From Calothrix sp. MO_167.B12 (GTDB lineage Bacteria > Cyanobacteriota > Cyanobacteriia > Cyanobacteriales > Nostocaceae): a DNA stretch of 11,916 bases. A program made the translations under genes and the position numbers. The stretch lies in contig JASJCJ010000244.1 of the NCBI GenBank assembly GCA_030066045.1, positions 1 through 11,916 on the forward strand, written 5' to 3'. The notes under the pieces were generated by a model. It had not been told where the DNA came from. It saw nothing but the letters and a program-made list of their open reading frames with translations, and ran no database searches. Positions 1,735 through 11,916 of this stretch are shown one piece after another. Numbering within the stretch: the stretch's first letter is position 1; every line of letters starts with the position of its first letter.

Positions 1735-1975
1735 ACCTCATCCCAGCTAAAGCCACCCCTCTCCTTAATAAAGCCACTATGTACACACAAACTATCGAAT
1801 TTCCAATAGTAAGAAAGCAAACCTCACCCTGACAAAAGCATACATCCCTCTCCTTAATAAGGAGAGGGAAAGATTTTTGCATCGCAAAAAGCGAGGGTGA
1901 GGTAATAATTTCATCGATTGGAGAGATGTGTACAACACGGTAGCCTTAATAAGGAGAGAGATTGAGGGTGAGGTC
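1735..1975. repeat. Cluster of nested palindromic short repeats (cyanobacterial dispersed-repeat / MITE-like)
   Basis: Motif (c)cctctccttaataa at 1756-1771, 1846-1860 and partially 1944-1954. The copy at 1846-1868 forms a perfect 10-bp stem (ccctctcctt/aaggagaggg) with a 3-nt loop. Nested hairpin tttttgcatcgcaaaaa (1874-1890). Outer inverted repeat cctcaccctg (1822-1831) / gagggtgagg (1893-1902), plus a third gagggtgagg at 1964-1973. Confidence 0.5.
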
Positions 1976-3367: not shown

Positions 3368-3570
3368 ATGAGTTTATCTGGTCAGCAGCGTAAAAGACTA
3401 CAAGATTTACAAGACAACATTGCCAAAGACGAAAAATTGCTCAAGGATTTTGAGGATGCATTGCGCTACGAGAAAGACCCTCGTGTCATAGCAGGATATC
3501 GCCGGGAGATTGAGCGACAGAGAGAGTCAATCACTCGCTACGAATCCGAAATGCGAGAACTACAACAAAA
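3368..3570 (+). other. Copy 1 of the shared N-terminal coiled-coil module (domain-level annotation)
   Basis: 3423-3531 is ~95% identical at nucleotide level to 8090-8198. Confidence 0.7.
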
Positions 3571-4255
3571 ATTGACAAGGGAACCATCTACTCAAATGCG
3601 AATGCAGGAGTTGGATGACAATACTAAACCTCTGTATGTTCTCTCAATACCCGTTACGAATCATAAAGAAGAGGAAAATCAAGATACAAAAATTAACTAT
3701 CCAATTGATAGCAAAGACAAGACACAACACTCGTCAAATCCTACAGATACTGAAGTAGAAACATATATCGAAAGAGGTATTGACTATACTCAACTACAAG
3801 AGTATATATCATCAGGTAAATGGAAGAAAGCTGACCAGGAAACAACTAGAGTTATGCTTGAAGTAGCTAACAGGCAAGAAGAAGGTTGGCTACGAAGTAA
3901 GGATATTGAACAGTTATCCTGCTCAGAACTCTGCAGAATAGACCAACTCTGGGTTAAATACAGCAACGGTCGGTTTGGTTTTAGTGTGCAAAGGCATATC
4001 TGGCTTAGCCTTGGTGGTCAACCAGGTAAATTCAATTTCACTGTCTTCTGTAAGTTTGGCAATCGCGTAGGTTGGCGAGTTAACAATGACTGGTTAGAAC
4101 AATACGATCAATTCACCTTTGCCTCTGATGCTCCAAAGGGACATCTCCCATCTTTGAGATTACCAGGTTCGGAGAAGGAAGCTAATTGGTGGGATTTGTG
4201 GCAGAAAAGCTTCAGAGGCTTGTTGCTTCGCATGGAAGATTGCTCATTAAGTTAA
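3368..4255 (+). CDS. Two-domain protein: N-terminal ~60-aa coiled-coil module (shared with the 8048 and 8738 genes), S/T/D-rich linker, and a C-terminal GUN4 (tetrapyrrole-binding) domain
   Basis: C-terminal region WKKADQETTRVMLEVA...SCSELCRIDQLWVKYSNGRFGFSVQRHIWLSLGG...VGWRVNNDW...FASDAPKGHLPSL matches the GUN4 core signature (W..AD..T...L..........PC.DL..ID.LW...S.G.FGFSVQ..IW...GG...W.....W...L.F...AP.GHLP). N-terminal KDEKLLKDFEDALRYEKDPRVIAGYRREIERQRESI is repeated in neighbouring genes. Confidence 0.85.
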   Translation: MSLSGQQRKRLQDLQDNIAKDEKLLKDFEDALRYEKDPRVIAGYRREIERQRESITRYESEMRELQQKLTREPSTQMRMQELDDNTKPLYVLSIPVTNHKEEENQDTKINYPIDSKDKTQHSSNPTDTEVETYIERGIDYTQLQEYISSGKWKKADQETTRVMLEVANRQEEGWLRSKDIEQLSCSELCRIDQLWVKYSNGRFGFSVQRHIWLSLGGQPGKFNFTVFCKFGNRVGWRVNNDWLEQYDQFTFASDAPKGHLPSLRLPGSEKEANWWDLWQKSFRGLLLRMEDCSLS

Positions 4256-4580
4256 GTTTCAATCTCAGTAATAAATAAGCTAATTAAATATAAGCATAGT
4301 CATTATATACATATAACTGATATGTTTCAGGTGCATCTATGGCAAGTTTTACAAGTAAGTTCCGAGGATAGGGATCTGGCGGCAACAAAGCATAAAAACG
4401 TTGAAGTCACCACATAGATAGGATTTCCGCCTTAGATCAATTCGGGTGTTCGGGGAAGTGAAGTTTCAATAAGTATCTTAGGTTCACAAAAAATTGATAG
4501 AAAACACGGAATATTGTGGTTGACATTGGTAGATATAAGTAAGTAGGGATGCAATAAAAATAAATACATAACTAAATCCG

Positions 4581-7529
4581 ATGAAATACTTAACAGTTTA
4601 CTTAAGATTAGCTATATTAATAGGTTGTGGGACAATAAATGCTGCTTTCGCTACAGGAAATACCAAAGCACAAACATTAGTGGCACCACAAGCTTCAACA
4701 GTAGTATTCAGCGAAATTTCAACTACAGCTAAATCACTAAAGATTAACCAACAGAGTCTATCTCATCAAAGTATACAACTAATGGCAATTCCCCAGAGTC
4801 AACCTTATATATTGGCTCAAGCAAGTAAAGGTGGAGAGAATGGAATCATTTGGATAGTTTTGTTAAGTGGAGTTGCGATCGCAGGAATCACGATTGTTTG
4901 CCAGAAAGGGGTGATTGTGATTGGTAAGAACGAAGTTGGCATTGTCTACAAAAAATTTGCCCCTTTTCGCGGTTCTCTCCCTGCCGATAAACTGATTGCC
5001 CTGAATGGAGAAGCGGGTTATCAAGCTGATACTCTTTCATCTGGTTTGCATCTCTGGTATTGGTCCTGGATGTACCAAATTCGTAAGGAACCAGCGATTG
5101 ACATTCCCCATGGGGAAATTGGTCTTGTCATTGCTAAAGATGGGCAACCAATCCCCCGCCAACGAATGTTAGGTAAAGTGATTGATGAGTGTAAAGATTT
5201 TCAAGATGGACATGGGTTTTTAAAGCACGGGGGTCAAAAAGGTAAGCAAATGGCTATCCTGACTACAGGAAGCTACCGTATTAACACTGAATTATTTACT
5301 GTGATTACTGCCGCCAATGCCACTAAGCATGGAATGAAGCCCGAGCAATTGAAAGTATATAAAGTGGAACCTAACAAAGTTGGTATTGTTACTACATATG
5401 ATGGTAAGCCAATTGAAGGTGAAATTGCTGGTTCAATTATTCATGATAATGAAAACTTCGTAAATGGAGAGAAGTTTATTAATGGGGGTGGGCAACAAGG
5501 CTTACAAGAAGAGTTGCTTCCTGTAGGTGAATGGAACTTAAATCCCTGGTTTGTGCAGGTTAAGCAAGTACCAGTGACAGAAATTCCCAATGGCTATGTT
5601 GGAATTATTAAATCCTATGTGGGAAAAACTCCTGAAAAGATTACTGGCACTGCTTCTTATCAAGGTGATTTGGTTGAAGATGGGTACAAAGGGATTTGGA
5701 AAACTCCCCTACGACCTGGCAAGTATGCTATTAACACAGAGGTGCAAAAAATAGAGCAAATACCTACTGATAATATTGTGCTGAAATGGTCAAACCAAAC
5801 CCAGTCTAAATACTATAGACATCTGCCTGCATTGAAGGTGCAAGATCAAGATGGATTTAAATTTGATGTAGAGGTAACACAGTTCATTCGCGTGAATCCC
5901 GAAGATGCCCCCAAGATGCTTTGCAGTGTAGGTTCCATAGATCAGCTAATAGACGAAGTTTTAAAGCCAACGGTCAGCCATTACTTTCTCACTGCTGCCC
6001 AATATTATGAGGCACTGGAATTTCAGAATAATCGTACTGACTTACAAGAAAGCGCGAAACAGGCTATCAAAACAGCCCTCAGTATTCACAATGTTCAAGC
6101 AATTGACACGTTGATTGGTGAAATTGACTTGCCCGATAAGTTAACTGAACATTTGATACAACGCAAGATTGCTCAGCAGGAAAAGGAAAAACTGAAAGTG
6201 GAAACATCATTAGAAGAGGAACGCCAAAATCATATTATAGCCAAGGAGACGGCACAAACAAGGGTTGAGGTAACTAAACATCAACTGAAGAGGGAGATTT
6301 TTGAACTAAATCGTCAAGAGAAACTAAACCAACAAAAAGCACAACAAGAGTTGAAGCGGCTGGCTCGTGAATCTGAAATAGAGGCGCGTCGTAGGCAAGC
6401 AGAAGTAGATGCACTATCTAAGCGACTGATAAGTCAAGTGGATATAGAAGACCTTCGCAAGAGAAAAGAGATAGAAGCAGACTTGAAGCAACTCCTGGGA
6501 GAAGCTGATGTAGATGTACTTGCCAAGACGCTGGAAGTCCTCGGTTCAGAAACATACACAGATATAGAAAAGAGCAAGATATTGGCAGAGGCACTGGGCA
6601 ATATCAAGGTGCCATTGGTACCGCAGACAATAAATTCTTTTGGCACTAGTCCTTATGGATCAATGGATTTCTTACAAGCAAATCCCCTTGGGTTGATGGT
6701 AACGCAGTTATTGCAGCAAGTAAGTCAGCAAAATCCCAACCAGCAACTTAGCAGTTCACCGTCAACACCTGTACTTCCTCAAACCCAGGTTAATTGTCCC
6801 AAGTGTGGATCTAAAAATCCAGAAACCAACAATTTCTGTAATAAATGTGGCACTGGACTAAATCAGCAGCTTTTCACTCACTCTCTATCTGAACCACGTT
6901 GCCCAGTTGTACTGCTTCTCGATACATCCAGTTCTATGTCGAGTGAATGTATCAATCAATTAATTGAAGGGATCGTTACTTTTCAACAGGAGTTAATGCA
7001 AGATACTGTAGCTTCCCGTAGTATTGAAGTAGCTATGATAACATTCGGTGACTCTGCCCAGGTAGTCCAAGACTTTACAATTGTTGAAAGTTTATCACCA
7101 CCTAAGCTTGTAGCAAATGGTATAAGTGCTATGGGTCAGGGGATTGAATTAGCGCTCAACGAGCTGGAGAGTCGCAAAGTTACTTACAAAAACAATGGCA
7201 TTCAGGAGCATCCAGCTTGGATGTTCTTGGTTGCAGGTAGTACTCCTAGCGACAATTGGAAAAATGCAGCAAGAAGTCTCAGAGAAGCTTTTGACAATAG
7301 CAAATTAATTTTCTTTACAGCAGTGGCTGTTCAAGGTGCAAACATGGATATTCTCAATCACATTGCTCCCAGCGATCCACCAGTAATGCTTAATGAATTG
7401 AAGTTTCAGGAATTGTTCCACTGGCTAGCTGATTCTCTAAAGAGAGTTTCCAGTAGCAAAGTAGGTAGCAGTACTAAGCTTCCACCCATCACACAGTGGG
7501 CAAGGATAGATGGGCTTTATCGGCAATAA
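4581..7529 (+). CDS. Large membrane protein: flotillin/YqiK-like SPFH (band 7) domain + long coiled coil + C4 zinc ribbon + C-terminal TerY-like von Willebrand A (vWA) domain. Alternative start ATG at 4782
   Basis: TM helix IIWIVLLSGVAIAGITIV, then an extended SPFH-like region (GIVYKKFAPF...GLHLWYW...IPHGEIGLVIAKDG... through ...SVGSIDQLIDEVLKPTVSHYFLTAAQYYEALEF...). E/R/Q/K-rich heptad coiled coil (LEEERQNHIIAKETAQTRVEV...EIEARRRQAEVDALSKR). CPKCGSKNPETNNFCNKCG zinc ribbon (6795-6851). vWA with MIDAS motif VVLLLDTSSSM...ITFGDSAQVV...GISAMGQGIELA...MFLVAGSTPSD (6900-~7390). Confidence 0.85.
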   Translation: MKYLTVYLRLAILIGCGTINAAFATGNTKAQTLVAPQASTVVFSEISTTAKSLKINQQSLSHQSIQLMAIPQSQPYILAQASKGGENGIIWIVLLSGVAIAGITIVCQKGVIVIGKNEVGIVYKKFAPFRGSLPADKLIALNGEAGYQADTLSSGLHLWYWSWMYQIRKEPAIDIPHGEIGLVIAKDGQPIPRQRMLGKVIDECKDFQDGHGFLKHGGQKGKQMAILTTGSYRINTELFTVITAANATKHGMKPEQLKVYKVEPNKVGIVTTYDGKPIEGEIAGSIIHDNENFVNGEKFINGGGQQGLQEELLPVGEWNLNPWFVQVKQVPVTEIPNGYVGIIKSYVGKTPEKITGTASYQGDLVEDGYKGIWKTPLRPGKYAINTEVQKIEQIPTDNIVLKWSNQTQSKYYRHLPALKVQDQDGFKFDVEVTQFIRVNPEDAPKMLCSVGSIDQLIDEVLKPTVSHYFLTAAQYYEALEFQNNRTDLQESAKQAIKTALSIHNVQAIDTLIGEIDLPDKLTEHLIQRKIAQQEKEKLKVETSLEEERQNHIIAKETAQTRVEVTKHQLKREIFELNRQEKLNQQKAQQELKRLARESEIEARRRQAEVDALSKRLISQVDIEDLRKRKEIEADLKQLLGEADVDVLAKTLEVLGSETYTDIEKSKILAEALGNIKVPLVPQTINSFGTSPYGSMDFLQANPLGLMVTQLLQQVSQQNPNQQLSSSPSTPVLPQTQVNCPKCGSKNPETNNFCNKCGTGLNQQLFTHSLSEPRCPVVLLLDTSSSMSSECINQLIEGIVTFQQELMQDTVASRSIEVAMITFGDSAQVVQDFTIVESLSPPKLVANGISAMGQGIELALNELESRKVTYKNNGIQEHPAWMFLVAGSTPSDNWKNAARSLREAFDNSKLIFFTAVAVQGANMDILNHIAPSDPPVMLNELKFQELFHWLADSLKRVSSSKVGSSTKLPPITQWARIDGLYRQ
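4875..4882. repeat. HIP1 octamer GCGATCGC (cyanobacterial highly iterated palindrome)
   Basis: Exact GCGATCGC. A second exact copy lies at 11788-11795, and a 7/8 copy at 1074-1081. Confidence 0.6.
6900..7390 (+). other. vWA domain (TerY-like, intact MIDAS DxSxS) within the 982-aa protein
   Basis: LLLDTSSSM ... FGDSAQ ... AxGxTxxG-like GISAMGQG ... VAGSTPSD spacing typical of vWA folds, immediately preceded by a zinc ribbon as in TerY-family vWA proteins. Confidence 0.7.
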
Positions 7530-7885
7530 AAGTCATGCCTGTGGAACATTCGTCTGAAAATCGATTTTCCCTATTTTACTCTTTAGCGGCTATTTGCCGC
7601 TCACGAAAATTTGGGTTTAGCGTACAAAAGCAAATCTATTGTGACGTGGGTGGCAAGCCAGGAAAATATAGCTGGGAAACGTTCGTTAGCTTTGCAGAGC
7701 AAGTGGAGTGGAAAGTAGGGGACAAATGGCTGGGCTATGATGAACTGTGTTGGGACTTACGAGGAGTACGTGGACACATACCCCTGTGGGTTACTGGAGG
7801 ACTAGCAGTTGATGCGGATACAAGGGTAGTAGTGTGTGGATGGGCAGTGGGGTTGTTCTCTCGCACAGAGACTTGTAGACTCTAA
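7496..7885 (+). CDS. GUN4-like domain protein, N-terminally truncated relative to a full GUN4 core (stand-alone fragment or remnant). Likely start is ATG 7535, 5 nt after the upstream stop. The GTG at 7496 overlaps the upstream gene
   Basis: RKFGFSVQKQIYCDVGGKPGKYSWETFVSFAEQVEWKVGDKWLGYDELCWDLRGVRGHIPLW aligns with the second half of the GUN4 domain of the 3368 gene (GRFGFSVQRHIWLSLGGQPGKFNF...VGWRVNNDWL...FASDAPKGHLPSL). Confidence 0.6.
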   Translation: MGKDRWALSAIKVMPVEHSSENRFSLFYSLAAICRSRKFGFSVQKQIYCDVGGKPGKYSWETFVSFAEQVEWKVGDKWLGYDELCWDLRGVRGHIPLWVTGGLAVDADTRVVVCGWAVGLFSRTETCRL

Positions 7886-8047
7886 CAGATAACCAATACA
7901 ACCTTTTATAAATATTTGATTTTTTACTAGAAAGTGTCCCCAGGAGGGGGAAGTAAATATCTGAGAAGCGTGATTTTTAAATATCCATAGTCAACTTCAC
8001 CAATCAATTTCACTTTTTCTCTGTCTAGGAAGTAGGAAGCCAGCTCC

Positions 8048-8734
8048 ATGACTAACCAAAGACTAAAAGATTTGGAAGATAGCATTACCAAAGACGAAAA
8101 ATTGCTCAAAGATTTTGAGGATGCATTGCGCTACGAGACAAACCCTCGTGTCATAGCAGGATATCGCCAGGAGATTGAGCGACAGAAAGAGTCAATCGCT
8201 AGTCACAAATCTGAGTATGTTGAACTGAAACAGGAATTAGCTGGGGAACCATCTGCTCAAATACAACTGCAAAAAGTAGAGAACCAATTGCAGCAGATGG
8301 ATAATAAAATAAACATTTTACTTAGTGGTCAGGTTGCTATTTATGCAGATATCAATGATATGCGTCTAGCCCTGTTAAAACGCTACGATGCCTCGGAACG
8401 AACCATAATTGGTGCTATTGCCCAGCAGTTAAATCAAAATCAATTAGTTTTGACACAACAGTTGTTGGATGCAGTAGAAAACAATCAAGTATCAGAACCA
8501 CAAATGCAACAGATGTTGGCAGTATTAGAAGATAAAATTCCTTCTCTACCTCCTAGTCAATTAGCCGCTATAGAGATTATAAAAGACCCCCAGTTTGATG
8601 CTAAACATAAACTAAAAGTAAGTCTACCAATTATACCAATGCTTGTAGAGTATGAAGGTGAATTAGAGTTAGGAAGTGGTTTTAATATCAAGTCTGCTTG
8701 GGAACATTTGGTAGCGAAGTTACGAAGGAAATAA
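8048..8734 (+). CDS. Protein with the shared N-terminal coiled-coil module fused to an uncharacterised all-helical Q/L-rich C-terminal domain
   Basis: N-terminus KDEKLLKDFEDALRYETNPRVIAGYRQEIERQKESI is near-identical to 3368-gene residues 20-55. The C-terminal ~150 aa have no motif I recognise. Confidence 0.75.
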   Translation: MTNQRLKDLEDSITKDEKLLKDFEDALRYETNPRVIAGYRQEIERQKESIASHKSEYVELKQELAGEPSAQIQLQKVENQLQQMDNKINILLSGQVAIYADINDMRLALLKRYDASERTIIGAIAQQLNQNQLVLTQQLLDAVENNQVSEPQMQQMLAVLEDKIPSLPPSQLAAIEIIKDPQFDAKHKLKVSLPIIPMLVEYEGELELGSGFNIKSAWEHLVAKLRRK

Positions 8735-8737
8735 GCT

Positions 8738-8998
8738 ATGTCTGATTGGCTTCAATACCTCCAACAACAAAAGAACAAAGATTTATCTCTATTAAAATAA
8801 TTAGAAGATAAGCTGCGCTATGAAGATAATCCACGTCAAAAACTGAGGTGGAAAGTTAAAATTGAAGAAATCAAGCAGAAAATAAAAAATGAACTCGACG
8901 ACGAGCAAACAGAACAAATCCGTGGCGGCATATTGCTAGGCTTTTTTAGGATAAAGAAAAAATCTGATAAGAAAGTACAGCACTTTGCAGATAAATGA
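8738..8998 (+). pseudogene. Third, diverged copy of the N-terminal module as a short stand-alone gene interrupted by an in-frame TAA (8798-8800). Either a pseudogene or a sequencing/readthrough case
   Basis: ATG at 8738 lies 3 nt after the upstream stop (translational coupling). MSDWLQYLQQQKNKDLSLLK-stop-LEDKLRYEDNPRQKLRWKVKIEEIKQKIKNEL... The module motif (LLK.[FL]ED.LRYE.[DN]PR) spans the stop codon in the same frame. Ends with TGA at 8996-8998. Confidence 0.5.
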
Positions 8999-9121: not shown

Positions 9122-9343
9122 TCAACTCTCACCAATTCCATGACCCTGCTCAATTTGTGCAAGATACCCCAATTCCACTGGTGTAAAAGCCACTGGTCGC
9201 TCTAAAAGACTCAGTATTTCCACCTCAAACGGGTCTAGGTCACACTGCCTCAGTTTTGATATGCGATAAGCCGGAGGCTTGACGCTTCGCGTATCGCACA
9301 CAGTACGAGGGTGAGCAGTACTCACCCTAAAATTTACCCGCAT
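9122..9343 (-). CDS. Hypothetical 73-aa protein immediately downstream of (co-directional with) the CHAT gene. Coding status uncertain
   Basis: ORF MRVNFRVSTAHPRTVCDTRSVKPPAYRISKLRQCDLDPFEVEILSLLERPVAFTPVELGYLAQIEQGHGIGES. Its start is 13 nt from the CHAT gene stop. Locally GC-richer than the flanks. No recognisable motif. Confidence 0.3.
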   Translation of the reverse strand: MRVNFRVSTAHPRTVCDTRSVKPPAYRISKLRQCDLDPFEVEILSLLERPVAFTPVELGYLAQIEQGHGIGES

Positions 9344-9355
9344 ACAATCTTCTTT

Positions 9356-10400
9356 CTATTGCCAATTTCCCACCAACACATAGGGCGCCCAAAAGTGAGG
9401 GTGATTATACTTTTCATCTGTCAACAGAGTTAGCTGTGCTTGTTGCAATACTTGAGCTTTATTGTTCTGAGTGGTTTTAGCTTCACCTAACTGACGATAA
9501 AATTCACTCATGATTTTAGCAGTACTTTCATCTGCTACAGGCCAAAGTGTCGCTAAGGTGCTACGCGCTCCTGCTCGCACCGCTACCCCAGCTAATCCCA
9601 AAGTAGCTCTTTTGTCTCCACTAGCAGTCTCACAGGCACTGAGAACTAATAATTCAATGGCTCTGGGTTGATTCAGGGTTTTATCTCGCAGTAAATTATC
9701 CAATTGCTTGACATTAATACGTCTATCCCAGGAGAGTATAAAAGTATCCTCTGCTTTAGAACTAAACTTGGCATGGGTAGCTAGATGAACTATGGGAAAA
9801 CGAAAATCACTAATCTCTTGTTGTACAGTGTTAGTGGTAAATTTCTTATTTAGAAGTGGTTGACCAGATAATCCAATTTTCTGGATTTGTTCTAGTTCCG
9901 ATGGTACATTAGGTAATGGGTTAAAACCTTGATGTGCGGGTAAGTCTTTGCGAATTTCACTGAGTCCTGCTGTTAAAGCTTTGAAATTTATTGCTGTTAG
10001 TGGTTTTGGGTTTACCAACTGTAAACCAGGTGTCAAGGCAATGGCATACTTTTCTAATAGATACTGCTTGCCATCGTGCAGAACAGCCATAGGAATATTC
10101 CGCAAGTCTCCATCTAAAACAAAAGCTACAGTCTTGACTTTACTATTTGCCAACTGTTTTTCTACTGGTCTAATTAACCAATTATACAGCTTTTGGTATT
10201 TGGGCAAAAAATATTTCTCTCTACTTATAGGTTTTAAAAGAGAACCCTGTACTTCCCCTACAGTATTTTCCAACTCTGATTGAGAAATTTTAGTACTGTA
10301 AAGCTGGGGAGGTTGATTAGGTAAACTGAGCAGAATTTCTAACCTATCTTTCAAGATAATTGGATAAATAACTGCTGCGTTTTTATCAATTTGATCGATT
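9356..10400 (-). other. CHAT peptidase domain portion of the TPR-CHAT protein (domain-level annotation)
   Basis: His and Cys catalytic motifs as above. AVIYPIIL...VAFVLDGDLRNIPMAVL upstream is typical of CHAT domains. Confidence 0.7.
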
Positions 10401-11916
10401 TGTTGGGGTTTTGCGTCTACACAGGCTTCTCGGAAAAAGTTGTTGATTTCTGCTAATTGCAAAGATTCAATTACATTACGGGCTTGAGTTAGTAATTTAT
10501 GACTTTCTTTCTCTTTTCCTGCGGTTTTTAAGAAACGAGCATATTCTAAATCTAATTGAACCAACTGGCGATATATTGGTTCAACATTATCCCGGAAAGC
10601 AAACTGTACCTCTGGGTTGACTGCGACTAAATCACCTCGTAATGATTGTAGGGAATCATAGGCTTTGGTATAGGCAGCAATAGCATCAGGAATATCGTTT
10701 TGGGCTTTACGTATGCGTCCCAACTGCCAGAAAAACTGGTAGGCGATGTGTGGTGATTCCAAATTTGAAGCTAAACTCAAAGCCTGTTTAGTCAATTGTT
10801 CTGCTTGGGATAAATTCTGCCTGGAACTACTCAGTTCATAGAGTCTACCGCGAAATCCTAATGCATAAGCTTGTGCCGCTTTATCTTCAAAACTCCTAGC
10901 TTGTGCTAATGCTTGGACTAAAATACTGTCAATTTCGTTAAAACTTGGTAGTTGAGAATTACCAGTGAGATTAAAATTTTCGGTTTGAGCTAATTTGACC
11001 AAACTTTGGGCAAAGTTTATTTGTAGGTAAACTGTTGTGCGACTGGGAGGCAAACTATTGAATTGAGACTTGATATCTTGCCATAATTGTGATGCCTCTA
11101 AAGTTTTTTTCCGTTTTAGTAACAAGCTGAGTTGATTCAATTTTGCTTGTTGTCTGGTGGTTGGAGATGTAGACAGCTTAATTACATGACTGTAAGAATC
11201 CAAAGCAGTTTGTTGATAATTCTGCCTTTGACGACGAATGGTTTCGCTTTCAGCCAAGGCTTGGGCTGTGTTACCCAGGGCGAGATAAACAGCAGCCTCT
11301 TGTTGGGGATAATTCAATTTTTGAACTACTTTTAAACTAGTTTCCAAGACCATTTTGGACTGTTCTAATTGACCTACAGATTGCAGTATGTTACCCAAAC
11401 TTGTCAATCCTAATACTACAGTAATAGGGGGAGAACTAGTTTCAATTTGTTGCAGCTTTGTGGTTAATTCTTCTGAAGTTAACCTGCCTAACTCTTGACA
11501 ATTTTCTAATTGTAATTGTGTCTTTAAGGCTTCAAGTACAGTATTACAAGCACGGGGATAAAAACCCAAATCTTGCATTGCTTGTGCTTGATTAATTTTA
11601 CTTTGAGTAACCTGGGAAGAATTTTTAATTTGGCTATAGATTTTCGTAGATTCTTGCCATGTCTGTAAAGCATCTGCCGACTGTCCAATTTCCCGTTGCA
11701 AGTATCCCTGAATATCTAAAGAGTTAGCCAAAATTCTCAACTGTTCTTGCTTCTGGGGTTGGGTTTTGAGTATTTTTAAACTATCTGCGATCGCATTTTT
11801 TGCTGATTCCCACTTGCCTAGTTTTTGATAAGTTAGGGACAGATTACTCAATGCCATTGCTTGGTTTAAGCTATCCTGTTGGGCAGCATAAGCTGCCGCC
11901 GTATCTTTCCATACAA
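9356..11916 (-). CDS. TPR-repeat + C-terminal CHAT (caspase-like HetF-associated with TPRs) protease-domain protein. 5' end (N-terminus) lies beyond the window edge
   Basis: Minus-strand ORF stays open past 11857 to the window edge (…VWKDTAAAYAAQQDSLNQAMALSNLSLTYQKLGKWESAKNAIA). Multiple TPR-like helical repeats. CHAT core near the C-terminus with catalytic dyad context HLATHAKF (rc at ~9763-9790) and LVLSACETASG (rc at ~9609-9637), followed by LGLAGVAVRAGARSTLATLWPV. Confidence 0.85.
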   Translation of the reverse strand, partial: VWKDTAAAYAAQQDSLNQAMALSNLSLTYQKLGKWESAKNAIADSLKILKTQPQKQEQLRILANSLDIQGYLQREIGQSADALQTWQESTKIYSQIKNSSQVTQSKINQAQAMQDLGFYPRACNTVLEALKTQLQLENCQELGRLTSEELTTKLQQIETSSPPITVVLGLTSLGNILQSVGQLEQSKMVLETSLKVVQKLNYPQQEAAVYLALGNTAQALAESETIRRQRQNYQQTALDSYSHVIKLSTSPTTRQQAKLNQLSLLLKRKKTLEASQLWQDIKSQFNSLPPSRTTVYLQINFAQSLVKLAQTENFNLTGNSQLPSFNEIDSILVQALAQARSFEDKAAQAYALGFRGRLYELSSSRQNLSQAEQLTKQALSLASNLESPHIAYQFFWQLGRIRKAQNDIPDAIAAYTKAYDSLQSLRGDLVAVNPEVQFAFRDNVEPIYRQLVQLDLEYARFLKTAGKEKESHKLLTQARNVIESLQLAEINNFFREACVDAKPQQIDQIDKNAAVIYPIILKDRLEILLSLPNQPPQLYSTKISQSELENTVGEVQGSLLKPISREKYFLPKYQKLYNWLIRPVEKQLANSKVKTVAFVLDGDLRNIPMAVLHDGKQYLLEKYAIALTPGLQLVNPKPLTAINFKALTAGLSEIRKDLPAHQGFNPLPNVPSELEQIQKIGLSGQPLLNKKFTTNTVQQEISDFRFPIVHLATHAKFSSKAEDTFILSWDRRINVKQLDNLLRDKTLNQPRAIELLVLSACETASGDKRATLGLAGVAVRAGARSTLATLWPVADESTAKIMSEFYRQLGEAKTTQNNKAQVLQQAQLTLLTDEKYNHPHFWAPYVLVGNWQ
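11788..11795. repeat. HIP1 octamer GCGATCGC
   Basis: Exact GCGATCGC inside the TPR-CHAT gene. Confidence 0.6.

What the first reader, a model, noticed from the sequence alone, without database searches (positions are those of the whole stretch)
7478..7885. Truncated GUN4 domain abutting/overlapping the 3' end of the vWA gene: remnant, split gene, or -1 frameshift fusion?
The GUN4-like ORF lacks roughly the first third of a GUN4 core. Its reading frame opens at 7478 (after a TAA at 7475-7477), inside the last 17 codons of the 982-aa gene, in the -1 frame relative to it. Either it starts at ATG 7535 (5 nt after the upstream stop, tight coupling) and is a minimal or degenerate GUN4, or an ancestral vWA-GUN4 fusion has been broken. 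No obvious X_XXY_YYZ slippery heptamer is visible in 7478-7529, so programmed frameshifting is unlikely but not excluded.
Basis: inference. Interest (0 to 1): 0.5.

Follow-up and report, generated by a model that had tools for sequence, protein, structure and literature searches.

The report
Leftover half of a GUN4 gene
The short GUN4-like reading frame after the vWA gene is most likely the stranded rear half of a once-separate GUN4-domain gene, left at a rearrangement junction in a cyanobacterial defence-gene island; it is neither a broken vWA-GUN4 fusion nor a frameshift product, so it is an ordinary gene remnant.

Summary
The coordinates hold: TAA at 7475-7477, the -1 frame opens at 7478, the vWA stop is at 7527-7529, and ATG 7535 starts a 116-codon ORF ending at 7885 with a significant Pfam GUN4 hit.

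GUN4 homology starts only at nt 7601 (KFGFSVQ). This corresponds to helix alpha5 of Synechocystis GUN4, so helices alpha1-alpha4 (nearly half the 8-helix core) are absent. They are not encoded in any frame on 17.4 kb of the contig.

The vWA protein ends at its family's natural C-terminus. No vWA-GUN4 fusion appears among 120 SPFH homologues or 150 GUN4 relatives. There is no slippery heptamer and no stable downstream RNA structure.

In all nine vWA-type loci, GUN4 is a separate gene upstream of the SPFH-vWA gene. In none of the eight related loci does a GUN4 gene directly follow it.

The ORF fills a 380-nt orphan segment (7531-7910) between two synteny blocks. The same locus also holds a nonsense-bearing adaptor pseudogene and an inverted CHAT gene.

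No relative shares the truncated architecture. Against the remnant reading, the retained half is undegraded and has an ATG 5 nt after the upstream stop. A functional half-domain therefore stays a minority possibility.

The parts
7601..7885 (+). Retained C-terminal half of a GUN4 domain, equivalent to helices alpha5-alpha8 plus the alpha6/alpha7 loop. It carries the motifs KFGFSVQKQI, VEW, GHIP and LFSRTETCRL. The stop codon is at 7883-7885.
   Evidence: Pfam GUN4 E = 3.2e-14. My own GUN4 profile matches positions 75-166 at 89 bits. The alignment runs from N155 of 1Y6I and G164 of 1Z3X. Helix assignment follows Verdecia 2005, PMC1084334. The score sits at the 73rd percentile of the C-halves of 100 intact domains.
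7535..7600 (+). A 22-codon leader (MPVEHSSENRFSLFYSLAAICR) with no GUN4 homology. Its ATG lies 5 nt after the vWA stop, with no Shine-Dalgarno-like motif. A GC hairpin (AGCGGC-TATTT-GCCGCT, 7585-7601) sits at its 3' edge.
   Evidence: The sequence is. The region upstream of the homology start scores -0.8 bits against the GUN4 profile, no better than shuffles. Nearly all of the 150 best relatives align only from residue 21-28. Upstream contexts are and the fold.
7478..7534 (+). Open -1 frame overlapping the last 17 codons of the vWA gene. There is no evidence that it is translated in this frame.
   Evidence: Searches show the frame. There is no slippery heptamer. The overlapped stretch encodes the conserved C-terminal tail of the vWA family.
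7531..7910 (.). Orphan segment between two synteny blocks. It contains essentially only the 116-codon ORF.
   Evidence: DNA similarity to L002 (82% nt) ends at window 7530, which is L002 7430, one base past the vWA stop codon. Similarity to L167 (86% nt) starts at about 7911.
4581..7529 (+). Complete SPFH/Band-7, zinc-ribbon and vWA gene (982 aa).
   Evidence: Pfam Band_7 1e-22, Zn_Ribbon_1 and VWA. The closest homologue is 70% identical and 970 aa. The protein ends at the family's usual C-terminus.
3368..4255 (+). Full-length helical-adaptor plus GUN4 gene (295 aa). This is the conserved upstream partner of the SPFH-vWA gene.
   Evidence: Pfam GUN4 1.1e-44, profile positions 3-125. It aligns to residues 88-211 of 1Y6I. 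A GUN4 gene lies directly upstream in 9 of 9 vWA-type loci and 0 of 76 SPFH-only loci.
8048..8734 (+). Conserved 228-aa component with the same N-terminal helical adaptor. In Moorena it is the first gene of the three-gene operon.
   Evidence: It is 64% identical over 76 aa to the N-terminus of the 295-aa protein. The search returned 305 relatives; the 120 listed are 52-86% identical. Operon order comes from L170 and L171.
8738..8990 (+). Pseudogene fragment: a third copy of the adaptor, with an in-frame TAA at 8798-8800 and no downstream domain.
   Evidence: tblastn and translation are. Similarity to L169 (82% nt over window 8025-8889) runs from the 228-aa gene into the 5' end of the adaptor-nSTAND1-WD40 gene that follows it there. 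Homologues have GAA, CAG, AAA or GAT at the stop position.
3393..3606 (+). Direct repeat with 8058-8271: 157 nt at 89% identity plus 50 nt at 76%. It is the adaptor-coding 5' end shared by the 295-aa and 228-aa genes.
   Evidence: the repeat finder families D1 and D2.
9356..11857 (-). CHAT-TPR gene, inverted relative to the sister genome.
   Evidence: Pfam CHAT 2.5e-57. In L167 the CHAT and 228-aa genes are co-oriented. The blastn matches between the window and L167 run in reversed orientation.

Best explanation
The 116-codon ORF is the stranded 3' part (about 285 nt, helices alpha5-alpha8) of a formerly separate GUN4-domain effector gene.

A rearrangement in a recombination-prone defence-gene island joined two blocks. 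One is the block [adaptor-GUN4][SPFH-Zn ribbon-vWA]. The other is the block that begins with the conserved 228-aa gene. The 5' part of the old GUN4 gene, including helices alpha1-alpha4, was lost in the process.

Shown here:
- the missing half of the domain;
- the absence of that half anywhere on the contig;
- the position of the ORF between two synteny blocks;
- the lack of any equivalent gene in related loci;
- other rearrangement scars in the same locus.

Inferred:
- The fragment no longer works as a GUN4 domain, because four of the eight helices that build the hydrophobic porphyrin-binding 'palm' are gone.
- It is probably still transcribed by read-through from the vWA gene.
- It may be translated by reinitiation at ATG 7535, giving a half-domain with no established role.
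- The event is recent, because the retained half is undamaged.
For: Truncation:
- Homology starts at nt 7601, which is N155 of Synechocystis GUN4.
- Helices alpha1-alpha4 carry the palm residues F105, L116, V135, F138, L143, I146 and W150, plus the alpha2/alpha3 loop that brackets the porphyrin (PMC1084334).

Not a split gene:
- No N-terminal half is found in any frame of the window (tblastn at E up to 10).
- None is found on 17.4 kb of the contig (profile search).

Unique:
- The word-index search of 5.8 billion proteins found only the protein itself and one full-length 161-aa GUN4 at 45% identity.
- The exhaustive search of 1.84 billion representatives gave a best identity of about 55-60%, to proteins that retain most or all of the N-terminal half, and no hit sharing the 22-residue leader.

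Synteny:
- The closest SPFH-vWA locus (L002, 70% aa and 82% nt identity) loses similarity to the window at the vWA stop codon and has no GUN4 downstream.
- Similarity to the sister genome L167 starts at about 7911.

Conserved arrangement:
- GUN4 is a separate gene upstream of SPFH-vWA in 9 of 9 vWA-type loci.
- In Moorena the operon order is [230-aa][adaptor-GUN4][SPFH-vWA].
- In none of the eight related loci does a GUN4 gene directly follow the vWA gene.

Other scars in the same locus:
- an adaptor pseudogene with a nonsense codon and no effector domain;
- a CHAT gene inverted relative to L167;
- an adaptor swap and an 89% nt repeat.

Comparable fragments elsewhere:
- Among 117 GUN4 places in the related loci, 5 others away from contig ends are N-truncated, at different points (profile positions 48, 50, 55, 71 and 73).
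- One of these is cut by an in-frame stop, and two have no ATG upstream of the retained domain.
Against: - The retained 94 codons have no stop or frameshift. They keep the family motifs and score at the 73rd percentile of intact C-halves. There is therefore no positive sign of decay.
- An ATG lies 5 nt after the upstream stop. That is the geometry of translational coupling.
- The ORF has a coding-like GC profile by codon position, 0.55/0.46/0.41.
- The ORF fills the orphan segment almost exactly.
- The donor gene and the order of events could not be reconstructed.
- Both structure predictions were too weak to say whether the half-domain could fold: mean pLDDT was 55 for the fragment and 58 for the full-domain control.
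Confidence: 0.7

Rival explanations
1. A functional mini-GUN4. The 116-aa protein would be made by termination-reinitiation at ATG 7535. It would act with the SPFH-vWA protein or the 228-aa component, for example as a partner-binding or competing half-domain, without binding porphyrin in the canonical way.
For: The retained half is intact, with a normal family score. The ATG lies 5 nt after the stop. The consensus scan found no terminator-like or promoter-like site in 7200-8200, so co-transcription with neighbouring genes is plausible. GUN4 domains are consistently linked to this vWA type.
Against: No relative anywhere shares the architecture or the leader. The closest orthologous locus lacks it. 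Four of the eight core helices and half of the hydrophobic palm are missing. The locus already has a full-length GUN4 partner upstream. There is no Shine-Dalgarno motif.
Confidence: 0.2
2. A broken vWA-GUN4 fusion, or a programmed -1 frameshift that extends the vWA protein into the GUN4 frame.
For: The -1 frame is open over the last 17 codons of the vWA gene.
Against: There is no slippery heptamer. The downstream RNA fold is no better than shuffled sequence, z = -0.68. The vWA protein ends at the family's normal C-terminus. No fusion appears among 120 SPFH homologues or 150 GUN4 relatives. The N-terminal half of GUN4 is missing in every frame.
Confidence: 0.02
3. An assembly chimera. The metagenome assembler would have wrongly joined the vWA gene to an unrelated GUN4 fragment.
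For: The source is a metagenome-assembled genome. The independent Logan contig ends only 17 nt into the vWA gene.
Against: The Logan contig from run SRR11343838 is 100% identical over 7513-8919. It includes 17 nt of the vWA 3' end, the whole ORF, the junction to the 228-aa gene and the pseudogene. A truncated GUN4 with no upstream half would still need explaining.
Confidence: 0.04

Closest known systems
GUN4 core domain (Pfam PF05419; Synechocystis GUN4, PDB 1Y6I; Thermosynechococcus GUN4, PDB 1Z3X)
   Same: There is significant sequence similarity over the FGFSVQ helix (alpha5), alpha6, the alpha6/alpha7 loop with GH(L/I)P, and the C-terminal helices.
   Different: It lacks alpha1-alpha4, about 61 of roughly 140 core residues. 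The position aligned to the essential Arg214 appears to be Gly, although the alignment is uncertain in that loop. It sits in a defence-type island, not next to chlorophyll biosynthesis genes.
Cyanobacterial GUN4 domains fused to caspase, kinase, TIR or adaptor domains in NTP-dependent conflict systems (Kaur, Burroughs, Iyer and Aravind 2020, PMC7159879; Kaur et al. 2021, PMC8195603)
   Same: The nearest relatives are of this kind: caspase-GUN4 arrays and adaptor-GUN4. The neighbourhood holds CHAT, an adaptor-sharing gene set and a Band-7-vWA protein. Adjacent adaptor copies are the most alike, as that paper describes.
   Different: Here only half a domain remains, with no N-terminal effector or adaptor. 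The window's adaptor gives no Pfam EAD1 hit, whereas the L002 and L009 orthologues carry EAD1.
Truncated 'orphan' cassettes left by recombination in polymorphic toxin, Rhs and CDI loci (from general knowledge; not tested here)
   Same: It is a 3' gene fragment beside intact paralogues in a locus with repeated 5' modules and variable 3' modules.
   Different: No homology arm is shown that would let the fragment be swapped back into the main gene. It is only 34% identical to the local full-length GUN4.
Programmed -1 ribosomal frameshift sites (dnaX type; from general knowledge)
   Same: An overlapping -1 frame lies at the end of a gene.
   Different: There is no slippery heptamer, no stimulatory structure and no conserved trans-frame product.

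Membership tests
GUN4 domain (PF05419) | Profile match above the curated threshold | tested here: met
   53.7 bits against a gathering score of 29.2, E = 3.2e-14.
GUN4 domain (PF05419) | Complete eight-helix 'cupped hand' core (alpha1-alpha8) | tested here: not met
   Homology starts at SynGUN4 N155, just before alpha5. Helix positions come from PMC1084334. The upstream residues score like shuffled sequence. No N-terminal half is found elsewhere.
GUN4 domain (PF05419) | Porphyrin-binding arginine (Arg214 of SynGUN4) after the GHLPLL motif | tested here: inconclusive
   By register from GHIPLW the equivalent position is Gly, read from the sequence and the alignment. The loop alignment is unreliable, and PMC1084334 reports GUN4 paralogues that differ at this position.
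GUN4 domain (PF05419) | Porphyrin binding or Mg-chelatase stimulation | not testable with these tools
   This needs biochemistry.
Programmed -1 frameshift fusion | Slippery X_XXY_YYZ heptamer in the zero frame within the overlap | tested here: not met
   None between 7440 and 7529.
Programmed -1 frameshift fusion | Stable downstream RNA structure | tested here: not met
   For 7500-7620 the z-score is -0.68, and 50 of 200 shuffles fold at least as well.
Programmed -1 frameshift fusion | Fused architecture present as a single ORF in relatives | tested here: not met
   No GUN4 in 120 SPFH homologues, and no vWA or SPFH in 150 GUN4 relatives.
Gene remnant / pseudogene | Truncated relative to all family members, with the missing part not encoded nearby | tested here: met
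Gene remnant / pseudogene | Absent from the equivalent position in related loci | tested here: met
   No GUN4 gene directly follows SPFH-vWA in L002, L003, L007, L008, L009, L012, L170 or L171.
Gene remnant / pseudogene | Disabling mutations or relaxed conservation in the retained part | tested here: not met
   No stops or frameshifts. The profile score is at the 73rd percentile of intact C-halves.
Gene remnant / pseudogene | Loss of a usable start codon | tested here: not met
   ATG 7535 is present, 5 nt after the upstream stop.
Adaptor-coupled conflict systems (Kaur et al. 2020) | The same adaptor domain on several adjacent genes, with adjacent copies the most similar | tested here: met
   Three copies at 3368-, 8048- and 8738-. 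Two of them are 89% identical at the DNA level. The principle is quoted.
Adaptor-coupled conflict systems (Kaur et al. 2020) | Adaptor recognisable as a catalogued EAD (Pfam EAD1) | tested here: not met
   No EAD hit at E up to 1 for the window's adaptor. EAD1 is present in the L002 and L009 orthologues.

The most novel reading that the evidence does not exclude
The half-GUN4 is kept on purpose. It would be translated by reinitiation right after the vWA gene and would act as a trans-acting half-domain, for example competing with the full adaptor-GUN4 protein for the SPFH-vWA scaffold.

Alternatively, the segment 7531-8889 (half-GUN4, 228-aa gene, adaptor stub) is a movable or variable cassette. 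The independent Logan contig ends 17 and 30 nt beyond the two breakpoints. That would fit branching of the assembly graph at both ends.
Probability: 0.1. Interest if true: 0.45.

Novelty: new member of a known kind. Interest (0 to 1): 0.2.

Why it matters
For the finding itself, little is at stake. It corrects an annotation, because 'GUN4 domain-containing protein' overstates a half-domain. It also removes two more exciting readings, a fusion and a frameshift.

The surroundings are more useful.

- A GUN4-domain gene is invariably paired with the vWA-bearing form of a cyanobacterial SPFH protein: 9 of 9 loci against 0 of 76 SPFH-only loci.
- In Moorena (two loci) both genes follow a widespread, unnamed ~230-aa protein that shares an N-terminal adaptor with them.
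- The window shows this module being reshuffled through an adaptor swap, an inversion and two stranded fragments. That illustrates how such defence-type islands turn over.

Tried and rejected
- **First genome-contig scan.** The single 982-aa protein as query found no relatives. The repeat with an alignment worked.
- **Origin from a kinase-GUN4 gene.** This is the last gene of the longer L007/L009 operons. I considered that a deletion from the vWA stop into that gene produced the fragment. The fragment is no closer to kinase-GUN4 domains (41-42%) than to others, and its nearest relatives (52-57%) are adaptor-GUN4 or stand-alone GUN4 proteins.
- **Recent copy of the local 295-aa GUN4.** Rejected: identity is only 34%.
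- **Two halves of one gene.** The fragment and the adaptor stub at 8738-8990 could be halves of a single adaptor-GUN4 gene permuted around the 228-aa gene. This cannot be tested. By DNA similarity the stub sits at the 5' end of the STAND NTPase gene that follows the 228-aa gene in L169. Helices alpha1-alpha4 are in neither piece.
- **Structure prediction.** Both the fragment and a full-domain control came out at low confidence, with mean pLDDT of 55 and 58 from 8-row alignments. No fold search was run and no conclusion was drawn.
- **Plasmid collection search.** It gave only distant GUN4 genes at no more than 41% identity.
- **Look-up of the 73-aa ORF at 9125-9343.** This was meant to find alternative contexts. 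It returned only the same contig.
- **Promoter and terminator scan of 7200-8200.** It found nothing, so it cannot say how the 228-aa gene is transcribed.


Full report
**Observation**

- A TAA lies at 7475-7477 and the frame opens at 7478.
- The 982-aa gene (4581-7529) stops at TAA 7527-7529.
- ATG 7535 follows 5 nt later and the ORF ends at 7885.
- The ORF is in the -1 frame relative to the vWA gene and overlaps its last 17 codons.

Pfam calls GUN4 (PF05419) at E = 3.2e-14, profile positions 48-125 of 141. The upstream gene is SPFH/Band-7 + zinc ribbon + vWA.

The sequence comes from a metagenome-assembled Calothrix sp. MO_167.B12. The gene caller already called a 116-aa 'GUN4 domain-containing protein' from ATG 7535. 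An independently assembled Logan contig (L173) is 100% identical to window 7513-8919, so the ORF and its junctions are reproducible.

**How much of GUN4 is there**

Less is present than the Pfam coordinates suggest.
- An exhaustive HMMER search of 1.84 billion representatives gave 837 hits. Nearly all of the best 150 align from query residue 21-28 onward, at the motif KFGFSVQ.
- Against a GUN4 profile I built from nine full domains, the ORF matches positions 75-166 of 168.
- The 44 residues before and just into that point score -0.8 bits. Shuffled versions reach 3.6 bits.

Against solved structures, the match starts at N155 of Synechocystis GUN4 (1Y6I) and G164 of the Thermosynechococcus protein (1Z3X). 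The window's full-length 295-aa GUN4 protein aligns from residue 88 and 95 respectively.

The structure paper (PMC1084334) describes the core as eight helices.
- Helices alpha1-alpha4 form the 'thumb, index and middle finger'. They carry palm residues F105, L116, V135, F138, L143, I146 and W150.
- Helix alpha5 carries F160.

So the ORF keeps alpha5-alpha8 and the alpha6/alpha7 loop, and lacks alpha1-alpha4. That is roughly 45-50% of the core, not a third.

The missing half is not hidden in another frame. tblastn with six GUN4 queries that reach further into the N-terminal half, at E up to 10, found nothing upstream of 7577 except the separate 295-aa gene. A profile search of all six frames of 17.4 kb of the contig found none.

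**Fusion and frameshift**

Neither reading holds.
- The vWA protein ends at the same alignment column as 12 of 20 homologues. Its final residues carry the family's conserved tail.
- None of the 120 best SPFH homologues has a GUN4 domain, by precomputed Pfam or by my profile. None of 150 GUN4 relatives has this vWA or SPFH domain.
- There is no X_XXY_YYZ heptamer in the overlap.
- The RNA from 7500 to 7620 folds no better than shuffles, z = -0.68.
- A single indel cannot explain about 70 missing codons.

**What related loci show**

I compared 86 loci around SPFH homologues, 80 loci around GUN4 relatives, and loci around homologues of the 228-aa neighbour.

Wherever the SPFH protein carries the C-terminal vWA domain, a GUN4-domain gene lies immediately upstream on the same strand. 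This holds for the window, L002, L003, L007, L008, L009, L012, L170 and L171. The upstream gene varies:
- EAD1-GUN4 in L002 and L009;
- caspase-GUN4 in L003;
- TIR-CHAT-GUN4 in L007;
- helical adaptor-GUN4 in the window and Moorena.

None of the 76 SPFH-only loci has such a neighbour. The Fisher exact test gives p = 2e-12.

None of the eight related loci has a GUN4 gene directly after the vWA gene. L007 and L009 have a kinase-GUN4 gene five genes further on, after a stand-alone vWA and a PP2C phosphatase. So does the fusion idea.

**Where the fragment sits**

DNA similarity to L002, the closest SPFH-vWA locus (70% aa, 82-85% nt), runs through both genes and ends at window 7530, one base past the stop codon.

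Similarity to L167, from the sister MAG Calothrix sp. MO_192.B10 (86% nt), begins at about 7911. It covers the 228-aa gene and its upstream region.

The 380 nt in between (7531-7910) match neither block and contain only this ORF.

The 228-aa protein belongs to a widespread, unnamed cyanobacterial family.
- In Moorena the order is [230-aa][adaptor-GUN4][SPFH-vWA].
- In L167 the gene follows CHAT-TPR and precedes two FGE-sulfatase-domain genes.
- In L169 it precedes an adaptor-nSTAND1-WD40 NTPase.

The window's order is permuted relative to Moorena and carries further scars.
- A third adaptor copy at 8738-8990 has TAA where homologues have sense codons, and has no domain behind it.
- The CHAT gene is inverted relative to L167.
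- The adaptor of the 295-aa gene has been exchanged. Its flanks match L002's EAD1-GUN4 gene at 85-90% nt. Its adaptor region instead matches the neighbouring 228-aa gene at 89% nt.

This fits the published observation that adaptor copies in adjacent genes are each other's closest relatives (PMC7159879).

**Is it a family of short GUN4s?**

It is not.
- The word-index search found only the protein itself and one full-length 161-aa GUN4, which shares the C-terminal LFSRTETCRL.
- The nearest relatives by the exhaustive search are 52-57% identical and retain most or all of the N-terminal half. One is an adaptor-GUN4.
- The fragment is only 34% identical to the local 295-aa GUN4, so it is not a recent local copy.

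Among 117 GUN4 places in the collected loci, 104 start within the first 20 profile positions. Away from contig ends, five others are N-truncated.
- Their start points all differ: profile positions 48, 50, 55, 71 and 73.
- L112 is cut by an in-frame stop.
- L109 and L135 have no ATG upstream of the retained domain.
- L135 abuts the 3' end of an unrelated gene, much like this case.

This is the pattern of sporadic breakage, not of a conserved short form.

**What argues the other way**

- The retained half is in good condition, with no stops or frameshifts.
- The motifs FGFSVQ, GH(I)P and LFSRxETCxL are all present.
- Its profile score of 89.6 bits sits at the 73rd percentile of the same region cut from 100 intact domains.
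- The ATG sits where a translationally coupled gene would start.
- The consensus scan found no terminator-like site in 7200-8200.

So the fragment is probably transcribed and may be translated. Either the rearrangement is recent or the piece is retained for some reason.

Structure prediction did not help. Mean pLDDT was 55 for the fragment and 58 for a full-domain control with the same shallow alignment.

**Verdict**

The ORF is best read as the stranded 3' half of a formerly separate GUN4-domain effector gene. It lies at a junction between two rearranged blocks of an adaptor-coupled defence-type island of the kind catalogued by Kaur et al. (PMC7159879, PMC8195603).

My confidence estimates are:
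- remnant: about 0.7;
- functional half-domain: about 0.2;
- fusion or frameshift: about 0.02;
- assembly error: about 0.04.

The finding itself is ordinary. The conserved pairing of GUN4 with the vWA-bearing SPFH protein, and the unnamed 230-aa partner, are the more interesting by-products.

Noticed in passing
window 3368-7529; loci L002, L003, L007, L008, L009, L012, L170, L171: A GUN4-domain gene always sits directly upstream of the vWA-bearing form of this SPFH protein: 9 of 9 loci against 0 of 76 SPFH-only loci, Fisher p = 2e-12. The part fused to GUN4 varies (EAD1, caspase, TIR-CHAT, helical adaptor). I did not find this dyad described in the two Kaur et al. papers I searched.
   Followed up: partly
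window 8048-8734; L167, L169, L170, L171: The 228-aa ORF belongs to a widespread cyanobacterial family of about 230 aa (the 120 listed relatives are 52-86% identical) with no Pfam or NCBIfam model. It precedes variable genes that share its N-terminal helical adaptor: GUN4 + SPFH-vWA, FGE-sulfatase domains, or an nSTAND1-WD40 NTPase. It behaves like a constant component.
   Followed up: partly
window 3393-3606 and 8058-8271: A direct repeat (157 nt at 89% plus 50 nt at 76%) encodes the shared adaptor of the 295-aa and 228-aa genes. The rest of the 295-aa gene is 85-90% nt identical to L002's EAD1-GUN4 gene. The adaptor was therefore swapped, probably by gene conversion from the neighbouring gene.
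   Followed up: partly
window 8738-8990: A third adaptor copy starts one codon after the 228-aa stop. It has an in-frame TAA at 8798-8800 where homologues have GAA, CAG, AAA or GAT, and no domain behind it. It occupies the position of the adaptor-STAND NTPase gene in L169, so the window's locus may have lost its NTPase.
   Followed up: partly
window 9356-11857 versus L167 6651-9320: The CHAT-TPR gene is inverted relative to the sister Calothrix MAG, where the CHAT and 228-aa genes are co-oriented.
   Followed up: partly
L173 = window 7513-8919: The independent Logan contig ends 17 nt and 30 nt beyond the two breakpoints at 7530 and 8889. Both distances are short (17 and 30 nt), which might reflect branching of the assembly graph at those points. 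That would mean strain heterogeneity or a movable segment.
   Followed up: no
window 7585-7601: A GC-rich hairpin (AGCGGC-TATTT-GCCGCT) lies right at the point where GUN4 homology begins. It could be a relic of a terminator or a recombination site.
   Followed up: no
window 1754-1961; L167 9354-9381: The small palindromic element CCCTCTCCTTAATAAGGAGAGGG occurs three times about 90 nt apart in the window. It occurs once in L167 just after the CHAT gene, in the CHAT-228 intergenic region that is rearranged between the two genomes.
   Followed up: no
L135 1270-1695; L112 101-799; L144 3120-4173: Other broken GUN4 genes turned up. In L135 a C-terminal half abuts and overlaps the 3' end of an unrelated 457-aa gene, with no ATG upstream of the retained part. 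In L112 the domain is cut by an in-frame stop. In L144 a truncated kinase is followed out of frame by GUN4 lacking alpha1-alpha2.
   Followed up: partly
L007 and L009, 10-15.6 kb; L008 8972-10076: Longer versions of the module continue with a stand-alone vWA, a PP2C phosphatase and a kinase-GUN4 gene. From memory this resembles the TerY-P triad (vWA, PP2C, Ser/Thr kinase).
   Followed up: no
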